Notes: generated by a model not told the origin, from the sequence alone. Positions 854 to 31,976 are shown, counted from the first letter of the stretch. The stretch is 32,000 nucleotides of DNA from Candidatus Saccharimonadota bacterium (GCA_001761425.1 CP012986.1:900001-932000); one strand, 5' to 3'. A program made the numbers and translations.

Positions 854-1288
854 ATGAGAACTGAAAAAGGAGTGGTCGTGGTAGCATACAAAGAAGTCAG
901 GAGAAACCTCCGCTACCTCGTACTCAAAAGAACAAAGAACTGGGAAGGCTGGGAACTACCAAAAGGCCACCTCGAAAACGACAACTACAGAGAAACCGTC
1001 AAACTCGAACTAGGTGAGGAAACAGGCCTGGAAGAGGAAAAAATTGAAGAAGTACAGGAAATGGAAAAGAAGCTCGAATGGACCTTTGAAGACGACGGAG
1101 AAAATGTGAAACGGGAGTACAAGGCCTTTGTTGTGAAGATAGGTGAGGATGCTGTGGTCGATGTTTCCGGTAATCCTCATGATGAGCATGAGAACGGGTT
1201 TTTCCTGGATTACGAGGACGCTTCTTCGCTCTTGACCTATGATAATCAGAAAGAGCTTCTGGAACAGGGTAAGGAGAGCCTGGAGTAA
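854..1288 (+). CDS. Nudix-family hydrolase (degenerate Nudix box)
   Basis: 144-aa ORF with a Nudix-box-like segment GHLENDNYRETVKLELGEETGL. A TTAAATAAAAAAAG TATA-like element sits about 25 nt upstream of the ATG, suggesting a leaderless mRNA. Confidence 0.6.
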   Translation: MRTEKGVVVVAYKEVRRNLRYLVLKRTKNWEGWELPKGHLENDNYRETVKLELGEETGLEEEKIEEVQEMEKKLEWTFEDDGENVKREYKAFVVKIGEDAVVDVSGNPHDEHENGFFLDYEDASSLLTYDNQKELLEQGKESLE

Positions 1289-1334
1289 CTTATATGTTAA
1301 AAGGCCTTGATGCCGAGTATTTGTTTGTGATACT

Positions 1335-1589
1335 ATGAGCAAGCCTGATGAACTTCTGGAGGTTTACCAGTTTGAACAGTGTCCTTACTGTTCGAAGGTC
1401 CGTAAACAGCTTACAGAGATGCAGATAGACTTTATCGCAAGACAGGTCGAACCGAACGGAGATCGTGAGAAGCCTGAGGAGTTGACCGGTGAGACACAGG
1501 TTCCAGTCCTGGTTGATCCTGACAATGACACAGTGATGAACGAGAGCGATGACATAATCCAGTATCTGGAAGAAACTTACGGAGAATAA
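1335..1589 (+). CDS. glutaredoxin-like thiol-disulfide oxidoreductase
   Basis: 84-aa ORF with a CPYC active site near the N-terminus (YQFEQCPYCSKVRK) and a VPVL cis-Pro region typical of the thioredoxin fold. Confidence 0.8.
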   Translation: MSKPDELLEVYQFEQCPYCSKVRKQLTEMQIDFIARQVEPNGDREKPEELTGETQVPVLVDPDNDTVMNESDDIIQYLEETYGE

Positions 1590-1598
1590 ATTCTTTCT

Positions 1599-1630
1599 CA
1601 AGGCCTTGAAAAAGGCCTGGTTCTTTTTTT
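1599..1630. terminator. bidirectional terminator: AGGCCTT-GAAA-AAGGCCT hairpin plus T-run
   Basis: A 7-bp perfect stem (1601-1607 with 1612-1618) carries a GAAA tetraloop and is followed by TTCTTTTTTT (1621-1630). It lies between convergent genes that end at 1589 (+) and 1629 (-). Confidence 0.5.
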
Positions 1631-1994
1631 ACAGCACTTTTTTGACTTTGTCTACTGCGTCACTCATCTCTACTTTTACTAGGCCCATGTTGACGTCGCT
1701 TTCTGTTAGTATTGCGAGTATTCCTTCGTCTCCTGCTCCTGTGGCGATAAGTTTTCCGTTAGCTGCTTCTATACTTACTTCGTCCACGTCTCCCATGTTC
1801 AATGCTTCGCTGGCGGTTTCTCCTGATCCTACCGTGGATGCTGTCATCGCACCGACCTGATCGTCATCAATGTCCTGGCCAAGGTTGGATGCGATCAGTA
1901 AACCGTCTCTTCGTACCACTGCTGCTCCTTTAATCCCCTGGACACTGTCCAGATCATCCAGCGGCTCGTTCAACTTTTCCTCCTTACTTGACAT
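1629..1994 (-). CDS. Roadblock/LC7 (MglB-like) domain protein
   Basis: 121-aa ORF. LDSVQGIKGAAVVRRDGLLIAS ... NGKLIATGAGDEGILAILTESDVNMGLV follows the Roadblock/LC7 pattern. A GGTGAAC Shine-Dalgarno-like motif lies 10-14 nt upstream (2004-2008). Confidence 0.8.
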   Translation of the reverse strand: MSSKEEKLNEPLDDLDSVQGIKGAAVVRRDGLLIASNLGQDIDDDQVGAMTASTVGSGETASEALNMGDVDEVSIEAANGKLIATGAGDEGILAILTESDVNMGLVKVEMSDAVDKVKKVL

Positions 1995-2151
1995 TTTATA
2001 GGTTCACCCTGTAGAATCTGGTGGTACTCATCTATATTGTATTTACTTCTACTGTGGGTTTAAATATCCTAATCCTGTGGTGAGCAGTAAACAATTCAGG
2101 GGGTCCATATCAGTGTCTTTAGACTCGAGGGATGGAGTAAATCTGTCTTAT

Positions 2152-4755
2152 CTACTTTTTGTACATGTAAGATTGGTCGATATATCTATTGGCTACTTTC
2201 TTCAGTGCTTCGAGAGCTACTATCGGAACTAAAGTCGCAGCTGTCAGGGTTTTCCATGTCTCAAGGCCTAGAGGCTGGTGGCCGAAGATGTTTGCTGTCG
2301 GCGGGAAATATACCAGAAGTACAAGCACCGGGATGAGGAAAAGTACAGAGCCTACAAGCCATCTGTTCTCGAAGAGGCCTACTTCTAGAACTGATTTATC
2401 CAGGGAGCGGTAGAAGTTGGCAGATATCATCATCAGTGTGATGGCTGCGAAGGTTGCTGTCTGAGCTACCCCGAGATTCTTCAAAGGGTCTGAGAGATAA
2501 AATACCGCGAAGGCTGAGAGACCCATGACTGTCGCCATTGAGCCGATGAGAAACAGATTTCTCCTGTGCATGATGCCTGCGGACGGGTTTCTTGGAGGCC
2601 TCTCCATTATTCCTTCTGTTCCCGGATCCATGCCCAACCCGATCGCTGGAATCTCCTCTTCGACAACGTTCAGGAAAAGGATCTGAACCGCAATTAGAGG
2701 AAGGTATTTGAAACCGAAGAATGCGATTCCAAGCGCAAGGACCACCAGTTCTGTGAAATTGATAGATATCAGGTAGGATGTGAATTTCTCGATGTTGTCG
2801 AAGATTCTCCTTCCATCCTTTACAGCAGAGACAATGGTCGCGAAGTTATCGTCTTCCAGTATAACATCGCTGGCCTCCTTCGTAACATCTGTACCTTTCT
2901 GACCCATGCTCACACCGATATCAGCCTTCTTCACTGCTGGAGCATCGTTTACACCGTCTCCGGTCATCGCCACTACCTCATCACCTTCCTCAAAGGCCTT
3001 TACGATCCTCAGCTTGTCCTTAGGATGGGTCCTTGCAAAGATATCGATGTCATCAACCATCAGCTCCAGTTCACGATCGCTCATATCCTGGACCTGTTCC
3101 CCGGTAACTACCTTCGGATCCTCTGAAAGACCTACATCCTTCCCGATAGCTCTGGCAGTCCTCGCATTGTCTCCTGTCACCATCTTCACATCGATACCTG
3201 CCTTCTCACATCTCTCAAGTGCTTCTTCAATTTCTTCTCTCGGAGGATCGATCATACCGGCAAGGCCTACAAAAGTCATCTCCTTTTCTACATTTTCCCT
3301 GTCGAAAGCTCCCTCAAGATCTTCTTTGAATGCGAAGCCAAGAACTCTCAAGGCCTCTCCCGCCATACTTTCGTTCTGTCTGATTATATCTTTTTTTCTT
3401 TCCTCTGTAAGCTTTTTTCTCTTTCCATCCTTCAGTACGTGACTGCATTTCTCCAGTACTACTTCTGGTGCGCCTTTCATGAAAGCGTAGTTCTCTCCGG
3501 TAACTGTTTCCTCACTTACTGTTGTCATACATTTTCTGTCGGATGTAAACATCAGTTCCTCTTTTCTCTGGAACTCTTCTTCCAGTTCTTCACGTTTCAG
3601 GCCTTCTTTTTCACCCATAACTGTGAGAGCTGCTTCTGTCGGTTCACCCTGTATTTTGTAGTTTCCTTCCTTGAGCATTAGGTATGAGTTGTTGCAGAGG
3701 ACTGCTGTTATGTACATTCTTCTCAGTGCGTCGCTCTCCTGTATGTTGACATTTTCCCCGTCTCTCAGAAGATCTCCCTCCGGTACGTAGCCCGAGCCCT
3801 CGACGCTGTATTCTTGGCCGTCCGCATAAACTTTCTTTACCGTCATCTCATTCTTGGTGAGTGTCCCGGTCTTGTCCGTGCATATCGTTGTTGTAGATCC
3901 AAGGCTTTCCACTGCCAGCATCTTCTTCACGACCGCGTTCCTTTTCGCCATATTCTTCATACCGACAGAAAGAGTCAACGTGAGAGCCAGTGGGAGGCCT
4001 TCAGGTATCGATGCTACTGCAAGAGCCAGTGAGACTATCAGGATCTCTGTAAAAGGTGCTCCACGTACGAGGCCTAAACCCATGACTACAAAGGTTGCGA
4101 GGACAGCTACAGCTCCCAGCTGTTTTCCAAGGCGATCAACATTTTTCTGTAGAGGTGTTTTCTCCTCTTCCTGCTGTATATCGTCTGCGATACTTCCAAG
4201 CTCGGTGTTCATTCCTGTGGAAGTGACTTTGGCCTCTGCTCTTCCATAGGTCACGGTAGTGCCAGAATAGATTTCGTCTTCTGCGTCTTTGGAAACTGGT
4301 TTGCTTTCTCCTGTCAGTATAGCTTCGTCTACTTTGAGAGAGTTTGATTTGATCAGTTTTGCGTCAGCTGCTATCTTGTCGCCGACATCTATCTTCAGTA
4401 TGTCCCCTGGAACGACTTTTTCACGTTCGATTTCCTTGATCTTTCCATCTCTGATGACCTTGACCTTGGGCTGGGTCATCTCTTCCAGTTTCTGCATCGC
4501 CTGTTCGGCTTTCCACTCCTGTACGAAACCCATAACTGCGATGAGGCCTATGATGGCGTTTACAAAGTAAAATTCCAGCATTTTTCCAGCGAAGACGGAG
4601 ATAACCGCTGCTGCTACAAGTATCCAGATAAGAGAGCTTTTGAACTGTCTTTTGAAGATGCTCCATTTTGTGGTAGGATCTTTCTCCTCCAGTCTGTTGG
4701 GACCGTTCTCTTCCAGTCTTCTGTCTGCTTCCTCCTGACTGAGGCCTCTCGCCAT
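2152..4755 (-). CDS. P-type cation-transporting ATPase (type II, Ca2+/SERCA-like)
   Basis: 867-aa ORF with TGES, the DKTGTLT phosphorylation site, KGAPE, MVTGDN, the TGDGVNDAPA hinge and multiple TM segments. Confidence 0.95.
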   Translation of the reverse strand: MARGLSQEEADRRLEENGPNRLEEKDPTTKWSIFKRQFKSSLIWILVAAAVISVFAGKMLEFYFVNAIIGLIAVMGFVQEWKAEQAMQKLEEMTQPKVKVIRDGKIKEIEREKVVPGDILKIDVGDKIAADAKLIKSNSLKVDEAILTGESKPVSKDAEDEIYSGTTVTYGRAEAKVTSTGMNTELGSIADDIQQEEEKTPLQKNVDRLGKQLGAVAVLATFVVMGLGLVRGAPFTEILIVSLALAVASIPEGLPLALTLTLSVGMKNMAKRNAVVKKMLAVESLGSTTTICTDKTGTLTKNEMTVKKVYADGQEYSVEGSGYVPEGDLLRDGENVNIQESDALRRMYITAVLCNNSYLMLKEGNYKIQGEPTEAALTVMGEKEGLKREELEEEFQRKEELMFTSDRKCMTTVSEETVTGENYAFMKGAPEVVLEKCSHVLKDGKRKKLTEERKKDIIRQNESMAGEALRVLGFAFKEDLEGAFDRENVEKEMTFVGLAGMIDPPREEIEEALERCEKAGIDVKMVTGDNARTARAIGKDVGLSEDPKVVTGEQVQDMSDRELELMVDDIDIFARTHPKDKLRIVKAFEEGDEVVAMTGDGVNDAPAVKKADIGVSMGQKGTDVTKEASDVILEDDNFATIVSAVKDGRRIFDNIEKFTSYLISINFTELVVLALGIAFFGFKYLPLIAVQILFLNVVEEEIPAIGLGMDPGTEGIMERPPRNPSAGIMHRRNLFLIGSMATVMGLSAFAVFYLSDPLKNLGVAQTATFAAITLMMISANFYRSLDKSVLEVGLFENRWLVGSVLFLIPVLVLLVYFPPTANIFGHQPLGLETWKTLTAATLVPIVALEALKKVANRYIDQSYMYKK

Positions 4756-8064: not shown

Positions 8065-8085
8065 TTGGTAAATGTTGTTCCTTCC

Positions 8086-13217: not shown

Positions 13218-14093
13218 GTGAAACTTCCCTGGAACACCGATAAGGAAAAAAGAATACAGGAACTCGAAAAGAAAATTGAAGACCTTGAAGAGAAAAGACA
13301 GAAACTGGAGAACCAGTACCATGCAGAAAAAGACAGAAGATCCAAACTATCCAGAGAGAAACAGGAAGCAGAGGAAAAACTCAACAGGCTTAAAGACAAA
13401 GTAGAAGGCCTCAAAGGAGAAAAAGAACAGGAAGAAAGAGAGGAGCGGAAAGGCCTTGAAAGCATCGGCTTCGAACAGGCCTACCAGCTCATGGAAAAAC
13501 TCTCCACACTGGAAGGTAGAAAAGAGGAGTTCGTAACCGTTTACTGTCCCGGAAAGTTTGAGGACTTTGACAGAAGAAAGGATCTAAAGAATTCTGTAGA
13601 TAAAAAAGATTTTGAACATCTCTCAGGGAAAAAGAGTTTTACAGCTTTCATGGACGAGGACCTGGGTTCCTGGATGCTGGAGACAAGGCCTTTCTTCACT
13701 CAAAAACTGGAGATAGATGAAAATTTCGATGTTTCAGGCCTTCTAAGTTTTATCGAAGAGGAAAAGATCTGGGTTTTACTTTCTGCGGGAAACACGAAAA
13801 TCTTCAGGGAGGAGCAGGGAAAATTTGAAGAGATCGAGGCCTTGAACTCCCGTATCGAGGAGAAGCATTCGAAAGGCGGTTTCTCGCAGGGCCGGTTTGA
13901 AAGGAAGCGTGAGGAGCAGATCAGGCAGTACATGGATGAGGTTAAGGATTTCGTTGAAGGCCTTGACGGCGAAGTCTTTTTACTGGGTGATCAGCGTTTC
14001 TGCGAGGAAGTCCCTGGTAAACGTCTGGGAGGCTTCGATCCGAACAGGGGAAGGCCTGACCAGTTCTACGGCTTCAGGCTGAAAAGGTTCTGA
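13218..14093 (+). CDS. Vms1/ANKZF1-like (VLRF1, eRF1-fold) putative peptidyl-tRNA hydrolase with N-terminal coiled coil
   Basis: 291-aa ORF with a GTG start. The N-terminal 80 aa form a K/E-rich heptad-like coiled coil. The C-terminal part has WVLLSAGNTKIF followed by HSKGGFSQGRFERKREEQ, matching the Vms1-family GxxQ/GSQ loop and RF-x-R signature as I recall it. Confidence 0.55.
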   Translation: MKLPWNTDKEKRIQELEKKIEDLEEKRQKLENQYHAEKDRRSKLSREKQEAEEKLNRLKDKVEGLKGEKEQEEREERKGLESIGFEQAYQLMEKLSTLEGRKEEFVTVYCPGKFEDFDRRKDLKNSVDKKDFEHLSGKKSFTAFMDEDLGSWMLETRPFFTQKLEIDENFDVSGLLSFIEEEKIWVLLSAGNTKIFREEQGKFEEIEALNSRIEEKHSKGGFSQGRFERKREEQIRQYMDEVKDFVEGLDGEVFLLGDQRFCEEVPGKRLGGFDPNRGRPDQFYGFRLKRF

Positions 14094-14126: not shown

Positions 14127-14870
14127 ATGGATTATGGATCTGAAGAGGAGAAAATCCGTGACATCAATAGAAAATTGAGGGATTACTACGGGAGGCCTGA
14201 GCCTCCTCAAGATCTTTCCGGGATCGAATACTTGATTGAGACAATTTTATCCCAGAATACGAACGATGTGAACCGGGACAAGGCCTTTAATCAGTTGAAG
14301 GAGAAGTACGGCGATGACTGGGAGAAAGTGGAGAACGAAGACATCAATGAGTTAACAGATACTATCAGAGTCGCGGGCCTCGGTCCTACGAAGGCAGAGA
14401 GGATTCAGGAAAGCCTGAGGATAGTCCGTAAAGATAGCCGAAGCTCTGGAGATGTAGAAGAGTCTTCGAATCAGGGAGAATATGATCTAGAGTTCATCGA
14501 GGATATGAGTATTGAAGAGGGTAAGGCCTGGTTGACGGATATCCCTGGTATCGGGCCTAAGACCGCAGCTATCATCCTCTGTTTCTACTTCAGGAAGCCT
14601 GTGATGCCTGTTGATACACATGTTCATAGAATCTCGAAGCGTCTAGGCCTTATCCCGGAAAATGCTTCACGTACAGAGGCACATAGTCTCCTTGAGGAGA
14701 AAGTGCCTGATGATATTAAATACGAGTTTCACCGGCTTTTAATCGATCATGGGAGAGAACACTGCAAAGCCCGCAACCCGACCTGCGAGGAAGGCCCTAT
14801 ACCCGGGTACTGCAAGCATTACAGGAAGGTGGAAAACGGTGGTAAGGATCCAGATGAAGTCCCGTATTAG
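14127..14870 (+). CDS. nth: endonuclease III-like HhH-GPD DNA glycosylase/lyase
   Basis: ILSQNTNDVN, the HhH motif IPGIGPKTAAIIL with the catalytic Lys, VDTHVHRISKRLGL with the catalytic Asp, and a C-terminal Cys cluster CKARNPTC...GYC. Confidence 0.85.
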   Translation: MDYGSEEEKIRDINRKLRDYYGRPEPPQDLSGIEYLIETILSQNTNDVNRDKAFNQLKEKYGDDWEKVENEDINELTDTIRVAGLGPTKAERIQESLRIVRKDSRSSGDVEESSNQGEYDLEFIEDMSIEEGKAWLTDIPGIGPKTAAIILCFYFRKPVMPVDTHVHRISKRLGLIPENASRTEAHSLLEEKVPDDIKYEFHRLLIDHGREHCKARNPTCEEGPIPGYCKHYRKVENGGKDPDEVPY

Positions 14871-16064: not shown

Positions 16065-16463
16065 TTAAACCGGTGTTCTGGCACCGCAGGCCTGACATTT
16101 CAGGATTTCTACTCCTTTCTCCTTTCGGATCTCGGTATCAGGCCTTTCACACTCCGGACAGAAAAGATATTCATCAGCGTAGTTATGGACTTTTTCATTG
16201 ACTTTTCCTCTTCTGAACTCTCCGTTCAGTACGAGTTCGTCGCCTTCGATGTGTCCTGCTGTTCCAAGCTCGTTCTGGATGTAGTTGGACAGATGCTTTT
16301 CATCCCTGTTAAACCTCTCGACAAGGCCTTTGAATTCTTCGATGATGGTCTGGGAGCCTTCTTTCCTGGTCTTTATCTCCGGGATTTCAAACCTGTTCTC
16401 AGATCCTATATCCTCAGGTACTTCTTCCTGTCCTTTCTCCAGTAGGTCTTCGTAGTCGCTCAT
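16065..16463 (-). CDS. eif2b: translation initiation factor aIF-2 beta subunit
   Basis: 132-aa ORF with the C-terminal zinc ribbon CPECERPDT...CQACG and a core typical of aIF2-beta (IQNELGTAGHIEGDELVLNG). GGTGAAC lies 8-12 nt upstream. Confidence 0.9.
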   Translation of the reverse strand: MSDYEDLLEKGQEEVPEDIGSENRFEIPEIKTRKEGSQTIIEEFKGLVERFNRDEKHLSNYIQNELGTAGHIEGDELVLNGEFRRGKVNEKVHNYADEYLFCPECERPDTEIRKEKGVEILKCQACGARTPV

Positions 16464-16491
16464 TTTTTGTTCACCTTAGTATTTCTGTGAT

Positions 16492-17238
16492 TTACAGTTT
16501 CTTTATTTTGCCTGGCTGTGGTTCGTAGCAGGTTCCGTCGCTGAGGAGGCCGTTGATGGTGTCTTCGAGTTTGTCTTCTGGTTCGTCGATTCCGTCGACG
16601 ATTTCTGAGTAGTCTGCGCCGTCTCCTTCGTCGAGGTCTTCTATTGCTTCGAGGACTTCTCTTTCGAGGTTTTCCATGTCCTGTTCTGTGCCTGCGTTGT
16701 CGAATGTTTCTCCGAAGCTCTGTAGCAGTGCGTCGATTTCGTCTTCGTCCAGCTTTCCTGCCATTTCTTTTTCGATTTCTTCCTGGTCTTTACCGCTTTC
16801 TTTTAGCTGTTTGACGGTTTCTCTCATCTGGCTCCATTGTTCGTCTGTTTTCTTTTTTCTGAGCTGGTGGAGGAGTTCTTTTTCGACTTCCGACTTCTTC
16901 AGTACTTCTCCGTCGAGGTAGATCTGTCCCTGGTATTCACGGACTTTTCCTACAACTTCAATGATGTCGCCGATCTCGTAGTCTTCCATGCGCTGTACTT
17001 CGTTGAAGAACTTGATCTGTGTAGTATCATTTCCGTCGTCGATAGTCAGGGAGCCGTATGTCTCATCATCGTTGATGAAGGAATCAACTACTGTTCCGAC
17101 CAGTCTTGCGCGTGAGAGCCTTCTGCCTTCAACAGTTAAAAGGAAATTAGGCTCGAAACCCTCTCTCTGAAAGTATTTTCCTTTGTTGAGTTCATCAGTA
17201 TCGGTCATTTTCGCGGTCTGTCTCTTCTGCTGAGGCAT
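16492..17238 (-). CDS. RPA32/Stn1-like OB-fold protein with acidic linker and C-terminal winged helix
   Basis: 248-aa ORF.
- **OB-fold segment:** RARLVGTVVDSFINDDETYGSLTIDDGNDTTQIKFF...GDIIEVVGKVREYQGQIYL.
- **Linker:** a long acidic stretch.
- **C-terminus:** LLSDGTCYEPQPGKIKKL resembles the MCM winged-helix C-terminus next door. Confidence 0.55.
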   Translation of the reverse strand: MPQQKRQTAKMTDTDELNKGKYFQREGFEPNFLLTVEGRRLSRARLVGTVVDSFINDDETYGSLTIDDGNDTTQIKFFNEVQRMEDYEIGDIIEVVGKVREYQGQIYLDGEVLKKSEVEKELLHQLRKKKTDEQWSQMRETVKQLKESGKDQEEIEKEMAGKLDEDEIDALLQSFGETFDNAGTEQDMENLEREVLEAIEDLDEGDGADYSEIVDGIDEPEDKLEDTINGLLSDGTCYEPQPGKIKKL

Positions 17239-17269
17239 ACTAGTTAATTGTTCGAAAAAACTTTAGTAC

Positions 17270-17524
17270 GTGACTAAGGAAAAACTCTCCATGGTATCAG
17301 AAAAGCAGAAAACAGAACTGGGCGAAGCACTCATAGGCATCGGATTCGTCCAGGTAACTTTCTCACTCCCATTCATACCCCTGAACCCGTTTTCCTTACT
17401 GCTTTCGCCACTGGAACTACCTACCACACACGTACTCGCTGTTTCAGGAGTAACAGGTTTCATCCTGTTCCTGACAGGAGTCGAACTCTGGAAAAGAAAC
17501 AGAACACACTGGAAAGATATCTAG
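17270..17524 (+). CDS. candidate small membrane protein (2 TM)
   Basis: 84-aa ORF with a GTG start and an alternative ATG at 17291. It has two hydrophobic segments. It is convergent with mcm and overlaps it by 4 nt. An opposing 66-aa ORF is present, so coding status is uncertain. Confidence 0.35.
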   Translation: MTKEKLSMVSEKQKTELGEALIGIGFVQVTFSLPFIPLNPFSLLLSPLELPTTHVLAVSGVTGFILFLTGVELWKRNRTHWKDI

Positions 17525-19509
17525 ATCTTCTGAACGTGGCCCTGCTGAGGCTCAAACAGCTCTCCTTCACGCTTCAGCTTCTCGATGATCTCCTCCGCCT
17601 TATCCTCAGATATACCTTCCCCATCAGCCCTCTCAAGCACTTCCTCGATCTCGGCAGAATCACCGTCAGCCAGCTCCTCTATAATATGCTTGATAGTCTG
17701 CAAACGATTCCTCTGGGAACTGGAAACACCTGACTCAATCATATCGATATCGAACTCACCAGTCTCCGGATCCATACCTACAAGCTTCAGAGAGTAAGTC
17801 AAAAGATCTATAGCTCTTTCAGCATCCTCAACAGTAACCTCATCCCTCAAATGCGCACGTGCAGAGGCCTCAGCAGTTCTCACTGTTGCCTCGAGCTGTC
17901 TCGCAGTTATAGGTACTCCTCCGCCTTCATCGTCGCCTTCCTGACGCATGGAAACGTAGAACTCCTGTATCTTGTCCGAGGCCTCTCTGCTAAGTTGAGG
18001 CCTTTTGTTCTTTTTTGCGAAGGCCACGTATTTCCTGAGTTTTTCGCCTGTGATATCGGGATTGGTCTCCTCTGGCTCGATGTGGTTCTGTAGGATCGCA
18101 TCAGCCAGTTCTGTGTCCCTCTCTTTGTCCGGTTCATCCATGACCGGGAAGATAAAGTCGAACCTGGAAAGCAGTGTATCTCCGATGCTGATCTGTTCTG
18201 CGACAGGCTCATAGGGATCGAACCTTCCCAGTTTCGGGTTACCTGCTGCAAGTATGCTTGTTTCCGCGTTCAAAGTTGCCTGGATGTTGGCCTTCGAGAC
18301 GGAGATCTGCTGTTGCTCCATCGCTTCGTGGAGGCTTGAACGGTCTTCCTTATCCATTTTGTCGATCTCGTCGATCGCTGCCATTCCTTTGTGTGCGAGG
18401 ACAACTGCACCGGCTTCAAGCGAGAACTCGCCAGTAGATTCTTCCTTAACTACCGAGGCTGTAAGGCCTGCTCCTGTACTGCTTTTTCCTACGACATAGC
18501 GTCCTTTTGGAGCGATCTCTCCTGTGAACTTCAGTAGCTGGGACTTACCTGTTCCTGGCTCACCGATTAGTAGTATATGAAGGTCTCCACGGCTTTTGAC
18601 ACCGTCATCCCTCGTCTTCTTCACTCCTCCGAACATCTGGAGAGCAATAGCTTCCTTGATACGGTCATGACCGTATATGCTCGGTGCTATAGAATCATTT
18701 ATCTGCTGAAATATATCCTCCCGCTCTGACATAGTTTTGATCTCGTCGATCTCTTCCTGGGAAAGTTCCAGCTGTTCGAACTCCTGCTGCGTCGGGTTAA
18801 CGTGCGAGGCCTCCATGTAGATATCGTATTTTTTCGAATCTTTCTGTAGAGGCGTCTCCCTCATTACTCCTGTTACTTCGACGACGTTTCCGGGAACTAC
18901 ACGTTTCTGGAACTCTGGATCCACCAGATCTCCTTCAAGACGGACGGAAAGACTTGTAGGCTGTTCTGAACCTTCTCTCGACTCCGGGTTCTCCTCCAGG
19001 GTCACCACCTGGGTATCTGTCATTATTTTTTCCTGGACCTCGAATTTTTTCGATCCGCAGTCGCATTTGTAAGGCGATTTCAGCTTGGACGAGTCCTGTT
19101 CCTTCTCGTAAAGGTCTCCGCACTGAACGCATTCGAAGACGGCAGAAACCACTTCCGGCTTGACCTGTGAGGCCCTCTTGATCATTCCCTCGATAGGAAT
19201 GAACCTTCCTATGTGCTCGGAACGCAGATTTTTCAGAAGAACAAACTCGTGTTCAGGGAAGTTGCTGAATCTGACAGTCAAATCCTCAGAGGTGACCTGT
19301 TCATGGACCTGAAGGCCTTCCTCAGCTGCCCCTATACCGTTTTCCGGTTTGTCGTGGAGGTAGTCTGTTACATCAGGGCTGAACATGTCAAGTTGCTGGT
19401 AGTCAACTACTATGGCATCGTCTCCGTCCTTGACCGCTTCCGATACCTCTGCATAGTAGCTCTCGGAGAAAAATTCCTCGAACTCGTTGACTGCCTCCCC
19501 GTAGTCCAT
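17521..19509 (-). CDS. mcm: minichromosome maintenance (MCM) replicative helicase
   Basis: 662-aa ORF with the zinc motif CVQCG...CDCG, Walker A GEPGTGKSQLL, Walker B IDEIDKM, the arginine finger SRFD and a C-terminal winged helix. Confidence 0.97.
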   Translation of the reverse strand: MDYGEAVNEFEEFFSESYYAEVSEAVKDGDDAIVVDYQQLDMFSPDVTDYLHDKPENGIGAAEEGLQVHEQVTSEDLTVRFSNFPEHEFVLLKNLRSEHIGRFIPIEGMIKRASQVKPEVVSAVFECVQCGDLYEKEQDSSKLKSPYKCDCGSKKFEVQEKIMTDTQVVTLEENPESREGSEQPTSLSVRLEGDLVDPEFQKRVVPGNVVEVTGVMRETPLQKDSKKYDIYMEASHVNPTQQEFEQLELSQEEIDEIKTMSEREDIFQQINDSIAPSIYGHDRIKEAIALQMFGGVKKTRDDGVKSRGDLHILLIGEPGTGKSQLLKFTGEIAPKGRYVVGKSSTGAGLTASVVKEESTGEFSLEAGAVVLAHKGMAAIDEIDKMDKEDRSSLHEAMEQQQISVSKANIQATLNAETSILAAGNPKLGRFDPYEPVAEQISIGDTLLSRFDFIFPVMDEPDKERDTELADAILQNHIEPEETNPDITGEKLRKYVAFAKKNKRPQLSREASDKIQEFYVSMRQEGDDEGGGVPITARQLEATVRTAEASARAHLRDEVTVEDAERAIDLLTYSLKLVGMDPETGEFDIDMIESGVSSSQRNRLQTIKHIIEELADGDSAEIEEVLERADGEGISEDKAEEIIEKLKREGELFEPQQGHVQKI

Positions 19510-28800: not shown

Positions 28801-29523
28801 GTGAACATTATCAATGTTTTGCTAGACAGCCTTAAGATGCTCAAGAGAAGGCCTCAACTTTTCCTCCCGAAACTGGCATCTGCACTGATAAGCTCGGCCT
28901 GGATAATACTTATATTTTCCATGCTGGAAGCAAGACAGCTCCAGCAACTTACAGCAGTCTACACGATAACTACACCGTTTATAGTACTGTTAGGAGTCTT
29001 CGTACCGCTGATGACTGCCGAAATGATAAGTAATCATGAAAGAAAAAACCTTCTCAGGTCCTCTTTCCTCAAGACAGCAAAAAACTGGAAAAAAGTACTG
29101 GGAGTAACCTTTTTGATGTTCATGGTAATATTCACGGTTTCCATACCCTCCATACTAGGCCTCACCGGATTCTGGCTCTTTGAAAACGCTTTGATAGGCC
29201 TAGCCGGGATCTCCGTATCCGTACTGATCCTGGTAGGCCTCAGCTTCCTGATATACTTTCTGCCGATCTCTGTTCTTGCAGAAGACAGTGTTATATCGGG
29301 AGTAAGAAGTTCAATGGATACTTCGCTGGAAAACAGGAGAGAGGTCTCTGTTCTAATGGCTTTCTCACTAGGCCTCTTCCTTCTAGCGTTTGGCTCCCAG
29401 GGCGTGACCAGAAACCTTGGTTTCACAGCATTTGTTTTTGGAAGAGTGCTTTCAGCGACGGTAACGACCTATACCTTTGTAGTAAGTCCTAAATACTACT
29501 TGAAAGAGAAAGATACTGAGTAA
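28801..29523 (+). CDS. hypothetical multi-pass membrane protein (about 6 TM)
   Basis: 240-aa ORF with a GTG start and alternatives TTG 28819 and ATG 28837. It has repeated hydrophobic segments and no catalytic motif I recognise. Confidence 0.6.
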   Translation: MNIINVLLDSLKMLKRRPQLFLPKLASALISSAWIILIFSMLEARQLQQLTAVYTITTPFIVLLGVFVPLMTAEMISNHERKNLLRSSFLKTAKNWKKVLGVTFLMFMVIFTVSIPSILGLTGFWLFENALIGLAGISVSVLILVGLSFLIYFLPISVLAEDSVISGVRSSMDTSLENRREVSVLMAFSLGLFLLAFGSQGVTRNLGFTAFVFGRVLSATVTTYTFVVSPKYYLKEKDTE

Positions 29524-29560
29524 GAAAAGAACAAGGCCTTGGATGGAGAAAAGGAGGCGT

Positions 29561-30127
29561 TTAGGCCTCCAGTGTTTCTACGAGTTTTTCCGCTGCTTCG
29601 TCTGCTTTGCCTTCCCTGTTTTCGATGATCTGGAGATAGGCGCCTGTGAGGACTGATCCTGTGGCCGCCATTTCTCTGGCGACTTCCTGGTATTCCTCGA
29701 TATCTTCAACGGATTCGTGTTCTCTGTCACGTCCTCCTTCCTGGCTTCTCTTAAAGATTGCTTCAGAGTCTGCTGTCAACATTACAAGCTTGTCAGGCAT
29801 GAGATTTTCGATAGTCCATTTCGGAAGACCTGGAATATAGCCGAAGGGAGACTTGATGGTAGCGTGAGTATCTACGATGACGTTTCCATCCTCAGAATCT
29901 TCAACAATGGATTCCGCGGCCTTTTTCTGTATATCCTTGTATGTTTCGACATCAAGGTCTTTCATCTCGTCCCTGTGTTCGACTAGGCCTCGATCCTTGG
30001 CGGTTTCCACCATCCTGTCGCCATAATTGATTACTTCATACTCTTCGCCAGATTTTTCTGTCGCTTTTTCGAGTACTGTTGATTTTCCGACTCCTGAAAG
30101 GCCTACAACTATATTTACGCTACTCAT
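29561..30127 (-). CDS. adkA: archaeal-type adenylate kinase
   Basis: 188-aa ORF with the P-loop GLSGVGKSTV at the extreme N-terminus and the DTHATIKSPFGYIPGLP pattern of AdkA. It overlaps the cca stop by 8 nt. Confidence 0.9.
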   Translation of the reverse strand: MSSVNIVVGLSGVGKSTVLEKATEKSGEEYEVINYGDRMVETAKDRGLVEHRDEMKDLDVETYKDIQKKAAESIVEDSEDGNVIVDTHATIKSPFGYIPGLPKWTIENLMPDKLVMLTADSEAIFKRSQEGGRDREHESVEDIEEYQEVAREMAATGSVLTGAYLQIIENREGKADEAAEKLVETLEA

Positions 30128-31481
30128 TTTCCTTCACTTTCAGCTTCTCCGCCAAGTATTTTAACCATTCCTCGTCGTCAGGAACAGCCTCCGTGAACCG
30201 GAACTCGACTATCTTCTTCGCCACATGATCCGGTATACCCTTCTTCTCCAGTTCCTCGACTTCTCCTGAAAGAAAATCGTTCAGAAAGGCCTTCGCTTCC
30301 GTGTAGTCTCTGTCGATTTTAGCCCAGATCCTTTCATCTTCTATGAAAGTGTTCTCGTACTTCTCTGTAAACTGTTCGAGGTGTTCGACGCCGTGAAAGA
30401 CTTTCGGACCTTTCTGCTTCCGGACTTCGGGAAGGGAGGCCTCAAGTTCGAGGAGGATGCGGGTTTTCTCCTCTCCGACGTGGAAACCGGTCTCGAAAAT
30501 CCTGAACTGTTTTTCTTCCAGTACGTTTTCCAGGCGGCGAAGAGTTTTCCTCATCTGTGGATAGATCACGTCCTCTACCGCTTCAGGCCTCTCAAACTCC
30601 ATAACCAGGAAGTCCGCTCTCCTGTCGATCTCCTGTTTTACCTCGAACTGGCTGATCTCTCTTTCCTCTTCCTGGAAGAATTTCATGCTAGGATCTCTGT
30701 TGAACTGCCAGAACCTGTGGATAACCCTGGAATAGTTCTGCGCACTCATCACCGAGGCGACATTCCTCTCCGGATCCACAGGATCGATGACCACAAAGCT
30801 TTCATCCGAAAACTTCTCTTTCAAGGCCTGAGGAAGGCCTCCCCCATGATGATTTTCAGGGTCTATTACCTCGTTTTCCCTCCAGTTCTCCGCTTCTTCC
30901 GCCAGTTCCTTGAAGCCTCCGAAGTGTGCGATCAGTATCTCACACAGGTAACCGGAGAAGGCCTGTACTTTGAGTGATGAGCCGTAGAGGCCTCCCGAGT
31001 CGAGGAACTTCTTCAGTATGACTGCGTCTTTTTTCTGTCTCTGGTTAAGGTTTTCTGAGGCCCATTTCGAGTGGTGTGGTGTTCTGTCGACCGCTGATTT
31101 GATGTTTTCGGGGCTTACTTTGTAGCAGGGGACGATTTCGACTTCGTGACCGTTTATTTGGCCTTTTGTGTATGGATGCTCTGCGTATTCGACCTGGTAT
31201 TCGCCGTCAAAGTTTTCAAAGGCTTTTTTTCCGACTGTGAGGCCTTGCTGTTCTATTGTTTTTCTTTCAGTATCTCTGGGAAAGAGTACGAAAAGATCAA
31301 TGTCTTTGTCGCCTGACATGCATGTACCTCGGCCTGTGCTTCCTGCGAAATGTGTTTCAAGGCCGTACTCTCCTTCTATAAACGCTGAGATTTTCTCGTA
31401 TACGCTTCTGGCATCGCGGAGTTCTTTCTGCTCCGGGTAAACCTGTTCTATGATTTTTTCACGGACTCTTTCCCATTCCAT
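30120..31481 (-). CDS. cca: CCA-adding tRNA nucleotidyltransferase (archaeal class I)
   Basis: 453-aa ORF with the active site GSTGRGTCMSGDKDIDLFVLFP and an RTPHH-like motif (DRTPHHSKW). An ATTAATAT TATA-like element lies about 25-35 nt upstream of the ATG. Confidence 0.93.
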   Translation of the reverse strand: MEWERVREKIIEQVYPEQKELRDARSVYEKISAFIEGEYGLETHFAGSTGRGTCMSGDKDIDLFVLFPRDTERKTIEQQGLTVGKKAFENFDGEYQVEYAEHPYTKGQINGHEVEIVPCYKVSPENIKSAVDRTPHHSKWASENLNQRQKKDAVILKKFLDSGGLYGSSLKVQAFSGYLCEILIAHFGGFKELAEEAENWRENEVIDPENHHGGGLPQALKEKFSDESFVVIDPVDPERNVASVMSAQNYSRVIHRFWQFNRDPSMKFFQEEEREISQFEVKQEIDRRADFLVMEFERPEAVEDVIYPQMRKTLRRLENVLEEKQFRIFETGFHVGEEKTRILLELEASLPEVRKQKGPKVFHGVEHLEQFTEKYENTFIEDERIWAKIDRDYTEAKAFLNDFLSGEVEELEKKGIPDHVAKKIVEFRFTEAVPDDEEWLKYLAEKLKVKENE

Positions 31482-31592
31482 AAAACTGTTTTTGTCCGGA
31501 AGCCGATATTAATCTTGGGAAAAAACGCTGAAATCTGAAGAATAATGAGCGAAAGAGTAGTGAGGCCTTTATAGAGGCCTCGGAGGAGTTTT

Positions 31593-31976
31593 TTAGTTGT
31601 TGAGGCCTTTAACCTGTTTGCGGTCGCCGATGACCCAGAACTCTATTTCTTCTCCTTCTCCTGCTGAGAGGTCGTCTGGGAGTTCCATTTCTTCGGTCTC
31701 GTATGTGTCCATGTCCATGACCTGTGCAATGTTTCCGTCTCTGGAGACTACCTGGCCGACTTTTTTGTCGACGTCAGGGCTCATCATCATTGCGTCGCCT
31801 GGCTTGGTGATATGTCTGTCCTTGTCATCGAATACTCCTCTCGCCTTGATCTTGTGCTTGGCACTTCCATGCTTTCCTGGAGAGGATTTGCTTGTTGATC
31901 GGACGATGCATGGCTCTCCGTCGATCATGATGTATGTTCCGTCGCTGACGTTGGATGCTTCCATTTGTGTCGGCAT
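31593..31976 (-). CDS. eif5a: translation initiation factor 5A (aIF5A)
   Basis: 127-aa ORF with the hypusination loop SSPGKHGSAKHKI and a C-terminal OB domain. AAGGTGAAC lies 9-13 nt upstream. Confidence 0.93.
   Translation of the reverse strand: MPTQMEASNVSDGTYIMIDGEPCIVRSTSKSSPGKHGSAKHKIKARGVFDDKDRHITKPGDAMMMSPDVDKKVGQVVSRDGNIAQVMDMDTYETEEMELPDDLSAGEGEEIEFWVIGDRKQVKGLNN

What the first reader, a model, noticed from the sequence alone, without database searches (positions are those of the whole stretch)
1024..31608. Highly iterated palindrome AGGCCT / AAGGCCT(T): about 17-fold over-represented, in all codon phases and in spacers
**Count.** A manual scan finds about 137 copies of the palindromic hexamer AGGCCT, roughly one per 230 bp. 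Equal base frequencies predict about 8 (32000/4096). With the moderate GC seen here the expectation is no higher.

**Specificity.** One-mismatch relatives that keep the GGCC core (TGGCCT/AGGCCA, CGGCCT/AGGCCG, GGGCCT/AGGCCC) appeared only about 10-16 times each in the same scan. So this is not a GGCC or base-composition effect.

**Codon phases.** The motif occurs in all three phases:
- AAG GCC T = K-A at 1121-1129 (YKAF)
- xxA GGC CTx = G-L at 1022-1030 (TGL)
- AGG CCT = R-P at 13686-13691 (TRPF)

**Strands and spacers.** It occurs in genes on both strands and in most intergenic spacers. Copies start at 1601, 1613, 4801, 6305, 8110, 9091, 9226, 9520, 10323, 11493, 11543, 12740, 13170, 19560, 29534, 31563 and 31575.

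**Effect on proteins.** It visibly shapes the proteome: [EK]-G-L, K-A-x and R-P recur in many of the predicted proteins.

**Interpretation.** The closest known analogue is HIP1 (GCGATCGC) of cyanobacteria, whose function is still debated. Palindromic hexamers are normally avoided rather than enriched because of restriction-modification pressure. Possible causes are a methyltransferase plus mismatch-repair drive (as very-short-patch repair enriches CCWGG-related words in E. coli), a nucleoid-protein or uptake/recognition signal, or a recombination/repair signal.
Basis: partly seen in the sequence, partly recalled or inferred. Interest (0 to 1): 0.85.

Follow-up and report, generated by a model that had tools for sequence, protein, structure and literature searches.

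The report
Hyper-abundant AGGCCT palindrome in a nanohaloarchaeon
The genome of the tiny salt-loving archaeon SG9 spells the 6-letter palindrome AGGCCT at nearly every place its proteins allow, an archaeal counterpart of the cyanobacterial HIP1 puzzle that can now be studied in a cultivated relative.

Summary
The window has 137 AGGCCT copies (4.3/kb), 17-fold over a dinucleotide model, and AGGCCT is the commonest hexamer.

The window comes from Nanohaloarchaea archaeon SG9 (a DPANN archaeon, 1.125-Mb contig).

The enrichment acts on the DNA word, not on codons:
- Coding regions hold 118 sites against 14.4 expected after synonymous-codon shuffling, about 8-fold in each codon phase.
- Non-coding DNA is about 20-fold enriched.
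- Synonymous opportunities are almost saturated: 88% of Arg-Pro, 85% of x-Gly-Leu and 74% of [KEQ]-Ala-[CFLSWY] contexts read AGGCCT, against 8-21% in motif-poor relatives.
- Gly-Leu and x-Ala-x peptides are 1.5-2.4 times commoner than in orthologues.
- Sites arose by all substitution types. This argues against deamination (Vsr-type) repair alone.

A recently transferred gene block has no sites in five motif-rich genomes, so accumulation depends on residence time.

The trait is patchy. Two separate clades have it: the SG9 group (strict hexamer) and the cultivated Ca. Nanohalovita group (GGCC/AGGCC-centred). Ca. Nanohalobium constans lacks it.

Best reading: a HIP-like word written by a transferable sequence-specific activity. 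The likeliest form is methylation-linked biased repair or recombination. No enzyme was found, so the mechanism is inferred.

The parts
1024..31608 (.). Dispersed set of 137 AGGCCT sites (palindromic, so the same on both strands)
   Evidence: One search gives every start: 1024, 1122, 1302, 1601, 1613, 2264, 2375, 2596, 2994, 3263, 3351, 3599, 3995, 4070, 4544, 4742, 4801, 5472, 5904, 6004, 6305, 6437, 6892, 7067, 7259, 7778, 7823, 8110, 8278, 9091, 9226, 9520, 9674, 9864, 10224, 10323, 10721, 10826, 11086, 11166, 11253, 11493, 11543, 11852, 11885, 12344, 12740, 13170, 13406, 13451, 13477, 13686, 13736, 13837, 13958, 14052, 14193, 14281, 14524, 14645, 15081, 15174, 15244, 15663, 15745, 16060, 16088, 16140, 16324, 17865, 17979, 17998, 18464, 18807, 19313, 19560, 19812, 19934, 19993, 20134, 20143, 20224, 20341, 20537, 20810, 21130, 21197, 21872, 22043, 22290, 22430, 22515, 22753, 22871, 22913, 23267, 23307, 23398, 23556, 23673, 23917, 24034, 24565, 24607, 25110, 25251, 25355, 25707, 25751, 25808, 26516, 26907, 27270, 27464, 27511, 27889, 28120, 28849, 29157, 29196, 29235, 29370, 29534, 29563, 29985, 30099, 30287, 30437, 30585, 30824, 30835, 30959, 30988, 31240, 31563, 31575, 31603. 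Spacing is near-Poisson: CV 0.91, mean gap 225 bp. Flanks show only a weak preference, A at -1 and T at +1 in 45% each.
13686..13691 (+). Example of phase-0 use: AGG-CCT = Arg-Pro
   Evidence: Offset 468 in the CDS 13218-14093. The site is kept in L010, L001 and L003. Outgroups have AGGGTA, CGGCCG or GCTCCA. 22 of 25 Arg-Pro dipeptides in the window are spelled AGGCCT.
1122..1127 (+). Example of phase-1 use: xAG-GCC-Txx = Lys-Ala-Phe
   Evidence: In the NUDIX gene 854-1288. 35 of 47 [KEQ]-A-[CFLSWY] contexts carry the site.
1024..1029 (+). Example of phase-2 use: xxA-GGC-CTx = x-Gly-Leu
   Evidence: In the NUDIX gene 854-1288. 60 of 71 x-G-L contexts carry the site.
1601..1618 (.). Two sites 12 bp apart between convergent genes (glutaredoxin 1335-1589 on +, Roadblock 1629-1994 on -). 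They can pair as a 7-bp hairpin, followed by a T-run on the + strand.
   Evidence: sequence context; minimum free energy -11.6 kcal/mol, not exceptional against shuffles (z = -1.6).
31563..31580 (.). Two sites 12 bp apart just downstream of the aIF5A gene (31593-31964, - strand). They can pair as a 7-bp hairpin.
   Evidence: -12.9 kcal/mol, z = -5.5, 0 of 200 shuffles fold as well.
16325..17864 (.). Longest site-free stretch of the window (1541 bp). It covers the conserved OB-fold gene 16492-17238 and the 3' end of MCM.
   Evidence: The expected number of gaps of 1500 bp or more is 0.22.
1..1023 (.). Site-free start of the window (GTPase gene 128-757)
   Evidence: 4.4 sites would be expected at the mean density. 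This is not significant on its own.

Best explanation
AGGCCT is a 'highly iterated palindrome' of the SG9 lineage of Nanohaloarchaeota. It is a DNA-level word that a continuing, directional, genome-wide process writes into all resident DNA.

Most likely mechanism. The cell carries a sequence-specific activity that reads GGCC: strictly A-GGCC-T in the SG9 clade, and GGCC with a looser A preference in the Ca. Nanohalovita clade. The likeliest candidate is a HaeIII/StuI-type cytosine methyltransferase, either orphan or part of a restriction-modification (R-M) system. Sites accumulate through a repair or recombination bias of the kind Elhai proposed for HIPs. A replication error or heteroduplex that completes a site becomes modified and is then treated as the template strand. 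An error that destroys a site is corrected from the modified parental strand. Any substitution that completes the word is therefore favoured and sites are rarely lost. The word fills every position that the protein sequence tolerates and also pushes some amino-acid replacements. The determinant is probably transferable between nanohaloarchaea.

Shown here:
- the effect acts on the DNA word, in all codon phases and in non-coding DNA
- synonymous opportunities are nearly saturated
- sites were gained by all mutation types and losses are very rare
- accumulation depends on residence time in the genome
- the phylogenetic distribution is patchy, with clade-specific stringency

Inferred, not shown:
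- the protein factor
- methylation
- the bias mechanism

My confidence is about 0.9 for 'a DNA-level directional force acting on the word through a sequence-specific factor'. It is about 0.4 for the methylation-linked ratchet specifically.
For: Source. The window is Nanohaloarchaea archaeon SG9: 100% MCM match, on a 1,125,078-bp contig.

Not a coding effect. Coding regions hold 118 sites against 14.4 +/- 3.3 after synonymous shuffling (maximum 26 in 1000 shuffles), about 8-fold in every phase. A codon-order shuffle gives 8.8. Non-coding DNA has 17 sites in 3.8 kb against 0.86 expected.

Saturation. R-P 22/25, [KEQ]-A-[CFLSWY] 35/47 and x-G-L 60/71 are spelled AGGCCT. The pooled values in motif-poor relatives are 0.11, 0.21 and 0.08.

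Effect on proteins. G-L and x-A-x peptides are 1.5-2.4 times commoner than in aligned orthologues. The amino acids at phase-1/2 sites differ from the outgroup majority in 71-72% of cases, against 56% background.

The whole word is the target. Gains were 67 transitions and 68 transversions, spread over all three half-site positions. The flank association odds ratio is 5.4.

Ratchet-like dynamics. Site patterns over (window, L001, L003) are 111 = 12, 110 = 11, 101 = 5, 011 = 0, 100 = 18, 010 = 8, 001 = 6. Every lineage gains sites and the window lineage shows no loss.

Dependence on residence time.
- A CobW/CbiA/decarboxylase block is 87-94% identical between otherwise diverged nanohaloarchaea.
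- It has 0 sites in 12.5 kb summed over five motif-rich genomes, whose flanks carry 1.2-5.4 sites/kb.
- A 75%-identical copy in a motif-rich genome has begun to acquire sites, 1.27 vs 3.56/kb.

Patchy, factor-like distribution. Two clades with 100% bootstrap support carry the trait: SG9/L161/L001 at 3.0-4.3 sites/kb and Nanohalovita/L003 at 2.1-2.2/kb. Motif-poor Ca. Nanohalobium constans (0.18/kb, equal to expectation) is sister to the first clade.

Different stringency on the same GGCC core. In clade B, GGCC is 6.7-7.2/kb with independent flanks (odds ratio 1.2-1.4).

Precedent. In cyanobacteria, alternate HIPs co-occur with cognate methyltransferases and show outer-position variation around the methyltransferase core (PMC4390886). 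CAGGCCTG is over-represented in Synechococcus PCC 6312 (PMC5861425).
Against: - No DNA methyltransferase, restriction enzyme or Vsr/Mig-type gene was seen in the 50.6 kb of SG9 read, nor by a crude C5/N4/N6 motif scan of the related and viral-scan loci held. That covers only about 4% of the SG9 genome.
- The published annotation of Ca. Nanohalovita mentions only a type III Mod/Res system and generic SAM methyltransferases (PMC10266531). The SG9 paper mentions no methylation.
- Elhai's model predicts saturation near 1 site/kb. Here the density is 4/kb and synonymous opportunities are 74-88% filled.
- One-mismatch neighbours are not depleted overall, at 0.8-1.65 of expectation. Almost all of the remaining neighbours sit where conversion would change the protein.
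- Sharing of sites between clades can be explained by parallel saturation: 15/25 shared with L003 against L003's own occupancy of 0.52. So 'conservation' does not by itself prove selection or inheritance.
Confidence: 0.4

Rival explanations
1. Uptake or recombination signal (DUS/USS-like or Chi-like drive). DNA fragments carrying AGGCCT are preferentially taken up or recombined between conspecific cells. The word then spreads by molecular drive, independently of organismal fitness.
For: The features resemble those of uptake sequences:
- all codon phases and non-coding DNA
- distortion of the proteome
- absence from recently acquired DNA
- occasional inverted pairs forming hairpins at gene ends

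DNA exchange among nanohaloarchaea does occur: a 90%-identical block sits in diverged genomes.

HIP1 has recently been reported to raise natural transformation in a methylation-dependent way and to correlate with uptake machinery (bioRxiv 10.1101/2024.09.10.611283; 10.64898/2026.06.24.733823).

A per-site transmission advantage without diminishing returns fits the near-saturation.
Against: - A 6-bp palindrome is a poor kin tag, because any foreign genome carries it by chance about every 4 kb.
- The transferred block entered five motif-rich genomes without a single site.
- No competence machinery is known for nanohaloarchaea (own knowledge; not testable here).
- Known DUS/USS are 9-12 bp and not palindromic.
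Confidence: 0.25
2. Selected binding sites for an abundant chromatin or nucleoid protein, or another chromosome-architecture factor. Each site is kept by natural selection for genome organisation, as Xu et al. argued for HIP1.
For: - Sites are retained at synonymous positions far above baseline: with identical amino acids, 26/26 in L010 against a baseline of 0.41, and 24/29 in L001 against 0.30.
- Spacing is slightly more even than random: CV 0.91, and 5 gaps of 20 bp or less against 11 expected.
- A histone gene lies just beyond the window.
- HIP1 conservation and periodicity were read this way (PMC5861425).
Against: - The occupancy odds imply a scaled advantage of ln(OR) = 2.4-4.1 per site. 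This would apply at what extrapolates to about 4,000 or more sites in a 1.1-Mb genome. That is hard to reconcile with a collective function that should show diminishing returns.
- There is no significant short-range periodicity: the best is 10.5 bp, p = 0.018 uncorrected over 15 periods.
- The conservation is largely explained by saturation itself.
- Close relatives such as Ca. Nanohalobium constans do without the word.
Confidence: 0.15
3. Very-short-patch type repair only. An m5C methyltransferase, plus a Vsr- or Mig-type T:G mismatch enzyme that over-corrects T to C in the site context, enriches the target word. This is what happens for CCWGG in E. coli, and is what Mig.MthI with M.MthTI (GGCC) could do in Methanothermobacter.
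For: - The core is GGCC, a known archaeal methylation target (own knowledge).
- The window encodes an HhH-GPD glycosylase at 14127-14870.
Against: - Only T>C or A>G changes at the C/G positions could be driven this way. In fact half of the creating changes are transversions, and 39 of 135 are at the outer A/T position.
- AGGCTT/AAGCCT and AGGTCT/AGACCT are at 0.90 and 0.95 of expectation.
- The glycosylase is EndoIII-1/DR2438-like, not Mig-like. It is conserved in motif-poor relatives too.
- VSP effects in E. coli are small compared with 17-fold (own knowledge).
Confidence: 0.05
4. By-product of amino-acid, codon or codon-pair usage or of base composition, or copies of a dispersed repeat element.
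For: The maximal-order Markov expectation (126) is close to the observed count (137).
Against: - Synonymous and codon-order shuffles give 14.4 and 8.8 against 118 observed.
- Non-coding DNA is enriched 20-fold.
- Relatives with the same G+C content and orthologous proteins have 0.2-0.6 sites/kb.
- The flank association test rejects independent sub-words.
- There is no sequence conservation beyond +/-1 around the sites.
Confidence: 0.02

Closest known systems
HIP1 (GCGATCGC), the highly iterated palindrome of cyanobacteria
   Same: - A short G+C-rich palindrome, 15- to 300-fold over-represented.
- Present in coding DNA in all frames and in intergenic DNA.
- Retained at orthologous positions.
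- Lineage-specific, with exceptions inside the lineage.
- Function still debated.
(PMC5861425; PMC4390886.)
   Different: - A hexamer rather than an octamer, and a different sequence.
- Archaeal (DPANN) rather than cyanobacterial.
- Higher density: 4.3/kb against 0.3-2.7/kb.
- Synonymous opportunities 74-88% filled. I know of no equivalent figure for HIP1.
- The cognate methyltransferases (DmtA, DmtC) are known for HIP1 and unknown here.
- Long-range periodicity could not be tested on 50 kb.
Alternate HIPs of cyanobacteria: GGCGCC in Calothrix PCC 7103, rCCGGy, GCsGC (Elhai 2015); CAGGCCTG in Synechococcus PCC 6312 (Xu 2018)
   Same: - Hexamer-scale palindromes with O/E above 15 that replace HIP1 in single genomes.
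- Sporadic phylogenetic distribution.
- Built around a methyltransferase core with variation at the outer positions.
- One of them (CAGGCCTG) contains AGGCCT itself.

   Different: - Those occur in single genomes. Here two whole clades of several species share the word or its core.
- A cognate methyltransferase was identified there and not here.
DNA uptake sequences (Neisseria DUS, Pasteurellaceae USS)
   Same: - About one or more copies per kb, in all frames.
- They distort protein sequences.
- Missing from recently acquired islands.
- Sometimes found as inverted pairs at gene ends.
- Explained by molecular drive.
(own knowledge)
   Different: - Those are 9-12 bp and not palindromic, and are read by a known competence receptor.
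- No competence system is known here.
- The transferred block has no sites.
Dcm/Vsr word bias in E. coli, and Mig.MthI with the GGCC methyltransferase M.MthTI of Methanothermobacter (own knowledge)
   Same: Methylation target words whose frequency is shifted by a repair enzyme. The archaeal precedent has a GGCC core.
   Different: The predicted signature was tested and not found: only T>C changes creating sites, and depletion of the deamination-product words. The effect here is far larger.

Membership tests
Highly iterated palindromes (HIP1 / alternate HIPs) | Short G+C-rich palindrome over-represented at least about 15-fold against low-order Markov models, and the top word of its length | tested here: met
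   17-fold (order 1) and 20-fold (order 0). It is the top hexamer.
Highly iterated palindromes (HIP1 / alternate HIPs) | Present in coding DNA in all reading frames and in non-coding DNA, beyond what codon and amino-acid usage explain | tested here: met
   Phases 22/36/60 against 2.6/4.4/7.5 after synonymous shuffling. Non-coding DNA has 17 sites against 0.86 expected.
Highly iterated palindromes (HIP1 / alternate HIPs) | Sites retained at orthologous positions more than control words | tested here: met
   28/40, 25/55 and 19/54 sites are retained, against hexamer baselines of 0.26, 0.18 and 0.13. With identical amino acids the figures are 26/26, 24/29 and 15/25, against 0.41, 0.30 and 0.27. 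Caveat: parallel saturation explains much of this.
Highly iterated palindromes (HIP1 / alternate HIPs) | A cognate DNA methyltransferase for the word or its core is encoded in the genome | not testable with these tools
   Only 50.6 kb of the 1.125-Mb SG9 genome could be read. No methyltransferase motif was found there, nor in the related and viral-scan loci held at the time.
Highly iterated palindromes (HIP1 / alternate HIPs) | Sequence GCGATCGC and a cyanobacterial host (HIP1 proper) | tested here: not met
   The word is AGGCCT and the host is a nanohaloarchaeon. It is therefore an analogue, not a member of HIP1 proper.
Highly iterated palindromes (HIP1 / alternate HIPs) | Long-range (10-90 kb) periodic distribution | not testable with these tools
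   Only 50 kb of contiguous sequence was available. Short-range periodicity is not significant.
DNA uptake sequences (DUS/USS) | Non-palindromic 9-12 bp word with a conserved extended context | tested here: not met
   The word is a 6-bp palindrome. Flanks show only 45% A/T at +/-1, and AAGGCCTT occurs 29 times against 27 expected if the flanks are independent.
DNA uptake sequences (DUS/USS) | Competence or uptake machinery that prefers the word | not testable with these tools
   No genome-wide gene search or experiment was possible.
VSP-repair word bias (Dcm/Vsr; Mig/M.MthTI) | Enrichment produced by T:G to C:G correction: sites created only by T>C or A>G changes at the C/G positions, and deamination-product words depleted | tested here: not met
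   Sites arose by 67 transitions and 68 transversions, with 39 changes at the outer A/T position. AGGCTT is at 0.90 and AGGTCT at 0.95 of expectation.
Dispersed repeat elements (REP/MITE) | Copies share sequence beyond the core and lie mainly between genes | tested here: not met
   There is no conservation beyond +/-1. 118 of the 137 copies lie within coding sequences.
Chi-like or polarity words (Chi, KOPS) | Asymmetric word with strand or orientation bias | tested here: not met
   The word is its own reverse complement (sequence).

The most novel reading that the evidence does not exclude
A transferable, sequence-specific 'genome-writing' system spreads among nanohaloarchaea. Once a lineage acquires an activity with GGCC/AGGCCT specificity, a repair or recombination bias rewrites the whole recipient genome. 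It fills 74-88% of the synonymous opportunities and changes protein sequences as well. Newly imported DNA stays unmarked for a long time. The word may then serve as a self-mark in a symbiont that lives attached to, and exchanges material with, a host cell.
Probability: 0.25. Interest if true: 0.9.

Novelty: new variant of a known kind. Interest (0 to 1): 0.8.

Why it matters
The purpose of hyper-abundant palindromes such as HIP1, and how they arise, has been open for three decades. So far they have been studied essentially in one phylum. This case brings several new things.

- An independent occurrence in Archaea, in 1-Mb genomes.
- The strongest degree of saturation I could quantify.
- A natural clock: a recently transferred block that is still blank in five motif-rich genomes.
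- A natural comparison set of complete genomes that differ in the trait. SG9 and Ca. Nanohalovita have it. Ca. Nanohalobium constans and Ca. Nanohalococcus do not.
- Two clades that read the same GGCC core with different stringency.

Ca. Nanohalovita haloferacivicina is in co-culture. The responsible factor and any modification can therefore be sought directly.

There are practical consequences too. The word is a sharp compositional marker for binning these genomes and for spotting foreign DNA in them. It also biases codon-usage and protein-evolution analyses of these genomes.

Tried and rejected
- Methyltransferase hunt. Regular-expression scans for C5 motif IV (PPCQxFS) and for N4/N6 (D/N/S)PP(Y/F/W) plus a SAM motif were run in six frames over the loci held. 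These were the nanohaloarchaeal relatives, both SG9 flanks, the island loci, and also the viral-scan loci. Nothing was found. A genome-wide search was not possible.
- HhH-GPD glycosylase as a Mig-like partner. Rejected: its best matches are Deinococcus EndoIII-1/DR2438-type enzymes, and it is present in motif-poor relatives.
- Viral contigs. MCM and OB-fold protein queries found no viral relatives. Whether viruses of these archaea avoid or share the word remains unknown.
- Short-range periodicity (3-200 bp). Nothing survives correction for multiple tests.
- Conservation of intergenic sites. Only three informative alignments were obtained (2 of 3 sites kept in L010), too few to use.
- Neighbour-word depletion. 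Not seen.
- Literature. No paper in the library combines AGGCCT with nanohaloarchaea, DPANN or haloarchaea, or 'highly iterated palindrome' with an archaeal case. The SG9 and Ca. Nanohalobium constans genome papers do not mention methylation or palindromes.
- An early reading that shared sites prove inheritance or purifying selection was dropped once the occupancy figures showed that parallel saturation predicts similar sharing.

Full report
**1. The observation.** AGGCCT occurs exactly 137 times in the 32,000-base window (G+C 46.5%). That is one site per 234 bp. It is the commonest hexamer; the next two are its own sub-words AAGGCC (73) and GGCCTT (66). Observed over expected is 20.5 at order 0, 17.1 at order 1, 5.8 at order 2, 2.05 at order 3 and 1.09 at order 4, the maximal order. 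It is uninformative here, because 86% of all AGGCC/GGCCT copies and 68% of all GGCC copies lie inside the hexamer.

Two better tests show that the hexamer is the unit:
- GGCC outside AGGCCT is at expectation, 65 against 72.
- The two flanks of GGCC cores are strongly associated. The counts are A+T 137, A only 22, T only 23 and neither 20, giving an odds ratio of 5.4 (p = 1.3e-5).

The word does not extend further. A at -1 and T at +1 occur in 45% of sites each, independently of one another: AAGGCCTT occurs 29 times against 27 expected. Spacing is close to random (CV 0.91). Short gaps are slightly too few, and no periodicity survives correction.

**2. Where the window comes from.** The genes are archaeal: MCM, an ATP-dependent DNA ligase, an archaeal CCA-adding enzyme, Elp3, TBP, aIF2-beta, and ribosomal proteins S8e and L15e. 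The window lies on a 1,125,078-bp JGI metagenome contig. Its MCM is 100% identical to a protein that NCBI assigns to 'Nanohaloarchaea archaeon SG9'. This fits Ca. Nanopetramus SG9 from Atacama halite (1.1 Mb, 46.4% G+C). The paper describing that genome says nothing about methylation or palindromes.

**3. It acts on the DNA word, not on coding.** I used the deposited gene calls. The 39 coding sequences of the window hold 118 sites. Keeping every protein sequence and the overall codon usage but shuffling synonymous codons gives 14.4 +/- 3.3 sites, with a maximum of 26 in 1000 shuffles. Shuffling codon order gives 8.8. The excess is about 8-fold in each of the three phases: 22/36/60 observed against 2.6/4.4/7.5. 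Non-coding DNA (G+C 40%) has 17 sites in 3.8 kb against 0.86 expected.

The most telling figure is occupancy, the share of amino-acid contexts able to encode the word synonymously that actually do so:

| context | window | motif-poor relatives, pooled |
|---|---|---|
| Arg-Pro | 22/25 (0.88) | 0.11 |
| [KEQ]-Ala-[CFLSWY] | 35/47 (0.74) | 0.21 |
| x-Gly-Leu | 60/71 (0.85) | 0.08 |

The log odds ratios of 2.4-4.1 are large for synonymous sites. This is my inference under a mutation-selection-drift reading.

The word also alters proteins. Gly-Leu and [KEQ]-Ala-[FLSYCW] are 1.5-2.4 times commoner than in aligned orthologues of motif-poor relatives. The number of Arg-Pro dipeptides is unchanged; those are only recoded.

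**4. How the sites arose and how they behave.** I compared 63 sites with the majority state in at least three motif-poor outgroups. The creating changes were 67 transitions and 68 transversions, spread over all three half-site positions, with 39 at the outer A/T position. The deamination-product words AGGCTT and AGGTCT are not depleted. A Vsr/Mig-type T:G repair drive therefore cannot be the sole cause. Whatever acts, it acts on completion of the whole word.

Site patterns across (window, L001, L003) are 111 = 12, 110 = 11, 101 = 5, 011 = 0, 100 = 18, 010 = 8 and 001 = 6. Every lineage keeps gaining sites and the window lineage shows no loss.

Sites are retained at synonymous positions well above baseline: 26/26 in L010 against 0.41, 24/29 in L001 against 0.30, and 15/25 in L003 against 0.27. 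Occupancy is so high that independent saturation predicts much of this sharing. L003's own occupancy is 0.52, against 0.60 sharing. I therefore do not take conservation as proof of inheritance or of classical purifying selection.

**5. A natural clock.** Just left of the window lies a five-gene block: a 201-aa ORF, an Orn/Arg decarboxylase, CbiA, a 163-aa ORF and CobW. It has no site in 4.5 kb, where about 19 would be expected. A 2.2-kb gene of 35% G+C on the right flank also has none. Both have atypical codon usage.

The decarboxylase/CbiA block recurs at 87-94% amino-acid identity in contigs of nanohaloarchaea whose neighbouring genes are only 40-64% identical. That indicates recent horizontal transfer. 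Summed over five motif-rich genomes the block has 0 sites in 12.5 kb, while the flanks carry 1.2-5.4 sites/kb. A more diverged copy (75% identity) in a motif-rich genome has 1.27 sites/kb against 3.56/kb in its flanks. The word therefore accumulates with residence time in the genome.

**6. Phylogenetic distribution.** AGGCCT densities around the MCM locus:

| genome | sites per kb |
|---|---|
| SG9 (window) | 4.28 |
| L161 | 4.05 |
| L010 | 3.60 |
| L001 | 2.96 |
| L003 | 2.24 |
| Ca. Nanohalovita haloferacivicina (cultivated, CP107255) | 2.14 |
| Ca. Nanohalobium constans LC1Nh | 0.18 (equal to expectation) |
| Ca. Nanohalococcus occultus | 0.05 (1 site against 4.5 expected) |
| Nanosalina and others | 0.2-0.7 |

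A neighbour-joining tree on 2,336-3,051 aligned residues gives two motif-rich clades, each with 100% bootstrap support: SG9/L161/L001 and Nanohalovita/L003. Motif-poor Ca. Nanohalobium constans is sister to the first clade with 64-79% support. So either the trait was gained at least twice, or it was lost several times. Two gains seem more economical, because a loss would need thousands of sites to decay back to expectation.

The two clades differ in stringency. In the SG9 clade the hexamer is the unit (flank odds ratios 4.2-7.1). In the Nanohalovita clade GGCC is just as dense (6.7-7.2/kb). There GGCC outside the hexamer runs at 4.4-5.0/kb, against about 1/kb in motif-poor genomes, and the flanks are independent (odds ratios 1.2-1.4). 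GGCC and AGGCC are the top 4-mer and 5-mer in both clades. They exceed synonymous shuffles in Nanohalovita: GGCC 131 against 56, AGGCC 84 against 24, AGGCCT 38 against 8.6. They do not in Ca. Nanohalobium constans.

A shared core read with clade-specific stringency, combined with a patchy distribution, is what a transferable sequence-specific protein would produce.

**7. Mechanism.** I conclude with high confidence that a lineage-specific, still active, directional process acts on the DNA word through some sequence-specific factor.

The specific model I favour, at about 0.4, is a methylation-linked repair or recombination ratchet of the kind Elhai proposed for HIPs. In that model, changes that complete a methyltransferase site are protected and changes that destroy one are corrected. 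It accounts for five findings: gains by any substitution type, very rare losses, filling of all tolerated positions, blank imported DNA, and outer-position variation around a GGCC core.

Against it:
- No methyltransferase was found in the roughly 4% of the genome I could read.
- The published Ca. Nanohalovita annotation lists only a type III Mod/Res system.
- The density of 4/kb exceeds the roughly 1/kb that Elhai's argument predicts.

The main rival, at about 0.25, is an uptake or recombination drive, as now proposed for HIP1. Selection for chromatin or nucleoid binding sites comes next, at about 0.15. VSP-type repair alone and coding or composition artefacts are disfavoured or refuted.

**8. 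Comparison with what is known.** The closest known kinds are HIP1 and, more precisely, the 'alternate HIPs' of cyanobacteria. These include hexamers such as GGCGCC with O/E above 15, and the octamer CAGGCCTG, which contains AGGCCT. The defining features I could test were met: over-representation, all frames plus non-coding DNA, and retention at orthologous positions. The cognate methyltransferase and long-range periodicity could not be tested. It is not HIP1 proper, because the word and the domain of life differ.

I found no report of such a word in Archaea or in nanohaloarchaea in the searchable library. Absence from that library is not proof that nobody has seen it.

I therefore rate it a new variant of a known kind, with high interest. 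It gives the HIP question an independent archaeal instance, a quantified near-saturation, a built-in clock, a presence/absence set of complete small genomes, and a cultivated carrier.

Noticed in passing
L025:236-4784 (window coordinates -8911 to -4363, just left of the window): A five-gene block (201-aa ORF, Orn/Arg decarboxylase, CbiA, 163-aa ORF, CobW) has no AGGCCT. It recurs at 87-94% identity in otherwise diverged nanohaloarchaeal contigs and is site-free in five motif-rich backgrounds. This indicates recent horizontal transfer. In L155 the adjacent NikR-like and ParB_N genes are also 80-92% identical.
   Followed up: yes
L023:4323-6512 (window coordinates 34970-37159, right of the window): A 729-aa gene with no Pfam hit has 35% G+C, strongly atypical codon usage and no AGGCCT in 2.2 kb. 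It is probably foreign or fast-evolving.
   Followed up: partly
window 1601-1618 and 31563-31580: Pairs of AGGCCT 12 bp apart in spacers at gene ends can fold into 7-bp hairpins, because the word is self-complementary. The first is followed by a T-run. The second folds much better than its shuffles (z = -5.5). They may act as terminators.
   Followed up: partly
L010:1627-3102: The MCM gene of the close relative L010 carries an in-frame insertion of about 490 aa with LAGLIDADG-like motifs, ending in ...SHN|S. This is an intein that the window's MCM lacks. It has 37% G+C and 3 AGGCCT sites (2.0/kb against 3.6/kb for the locus).
   Followed up: partly
window 14127-14870 (+): An HhH-GPD DNA glycosylase. 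Its best matches are Deinococcus EndoIII-1 / DR2438-type monofunctional glycosylases, not Mig. It is conserved next to the VLRF1-like gene in all the nanohaloarchaeal relatives examined, whether or not they carry the motif.
   Followed up: partly
L162, L160, L004, L007, L013: Several motif-poor nanohaloarchaea have CCGG as their top over-represented 4-mer (O/E about 2-2.4). TCCGGA is among their top palindromic hexamers. This may be a weaker, different iterated palindrome.
   Followed up: no
L160 (Ca. Nanohalococcus occultus CP180231); pooled L004-L007: AGGCCT is nearly absent around the MCM locus of Ca. Nanohalococcus (1 site against 4.5 expected). GGGCCT/AGGCCC is strongly depleted in the pooled motif-poor relatives (3 against 18.7). 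This may reflect restriction-type avoidance.
   Followed up: no
L028 (IMGVR_UViG_3300029432_000018) and L113: Two viral contigs have dispersed, non-tandem AGGCCT. L028 has 13 sites in 3.6 kb at 36% G+C, mostly as AAGGCCTT. L113 has 22 sites in 10.8 kb. Neither shows homology to the nanohaloarchaeal loci. Their hosts are unknown.
   Followed up: partly
L016 (JAJPHT010000046.1): A contig labelled 'Proteobacteria bacterium' MAG (73% G+C) encodes an archaeal MCM. It resembles the Thermoplasmatota contigs L014, L017 and L018, so it is probably mis-binned.
   Followed up: no
window (whole); also L007, L002, L003: GATATC is the second most over-represented palindromic hexamer (19 against 6.5 in the window, 20 against 4.7 in L007). 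This may be a codon effect of Asp-Ile in acidic proteomes.
   Followed up: no
L001, L010: These MAGs are labelled 'Candidatus Nanohalobium sp.' in their records. By MCM identity both are closer to SG9 (85% and 91%) than Ca. Nanohalobium constans is (78%), and in the tree L001 groups with SG9. Both share SG9's motif, which Ca. Nanohalobium constans lacks.
   Followed up: partly
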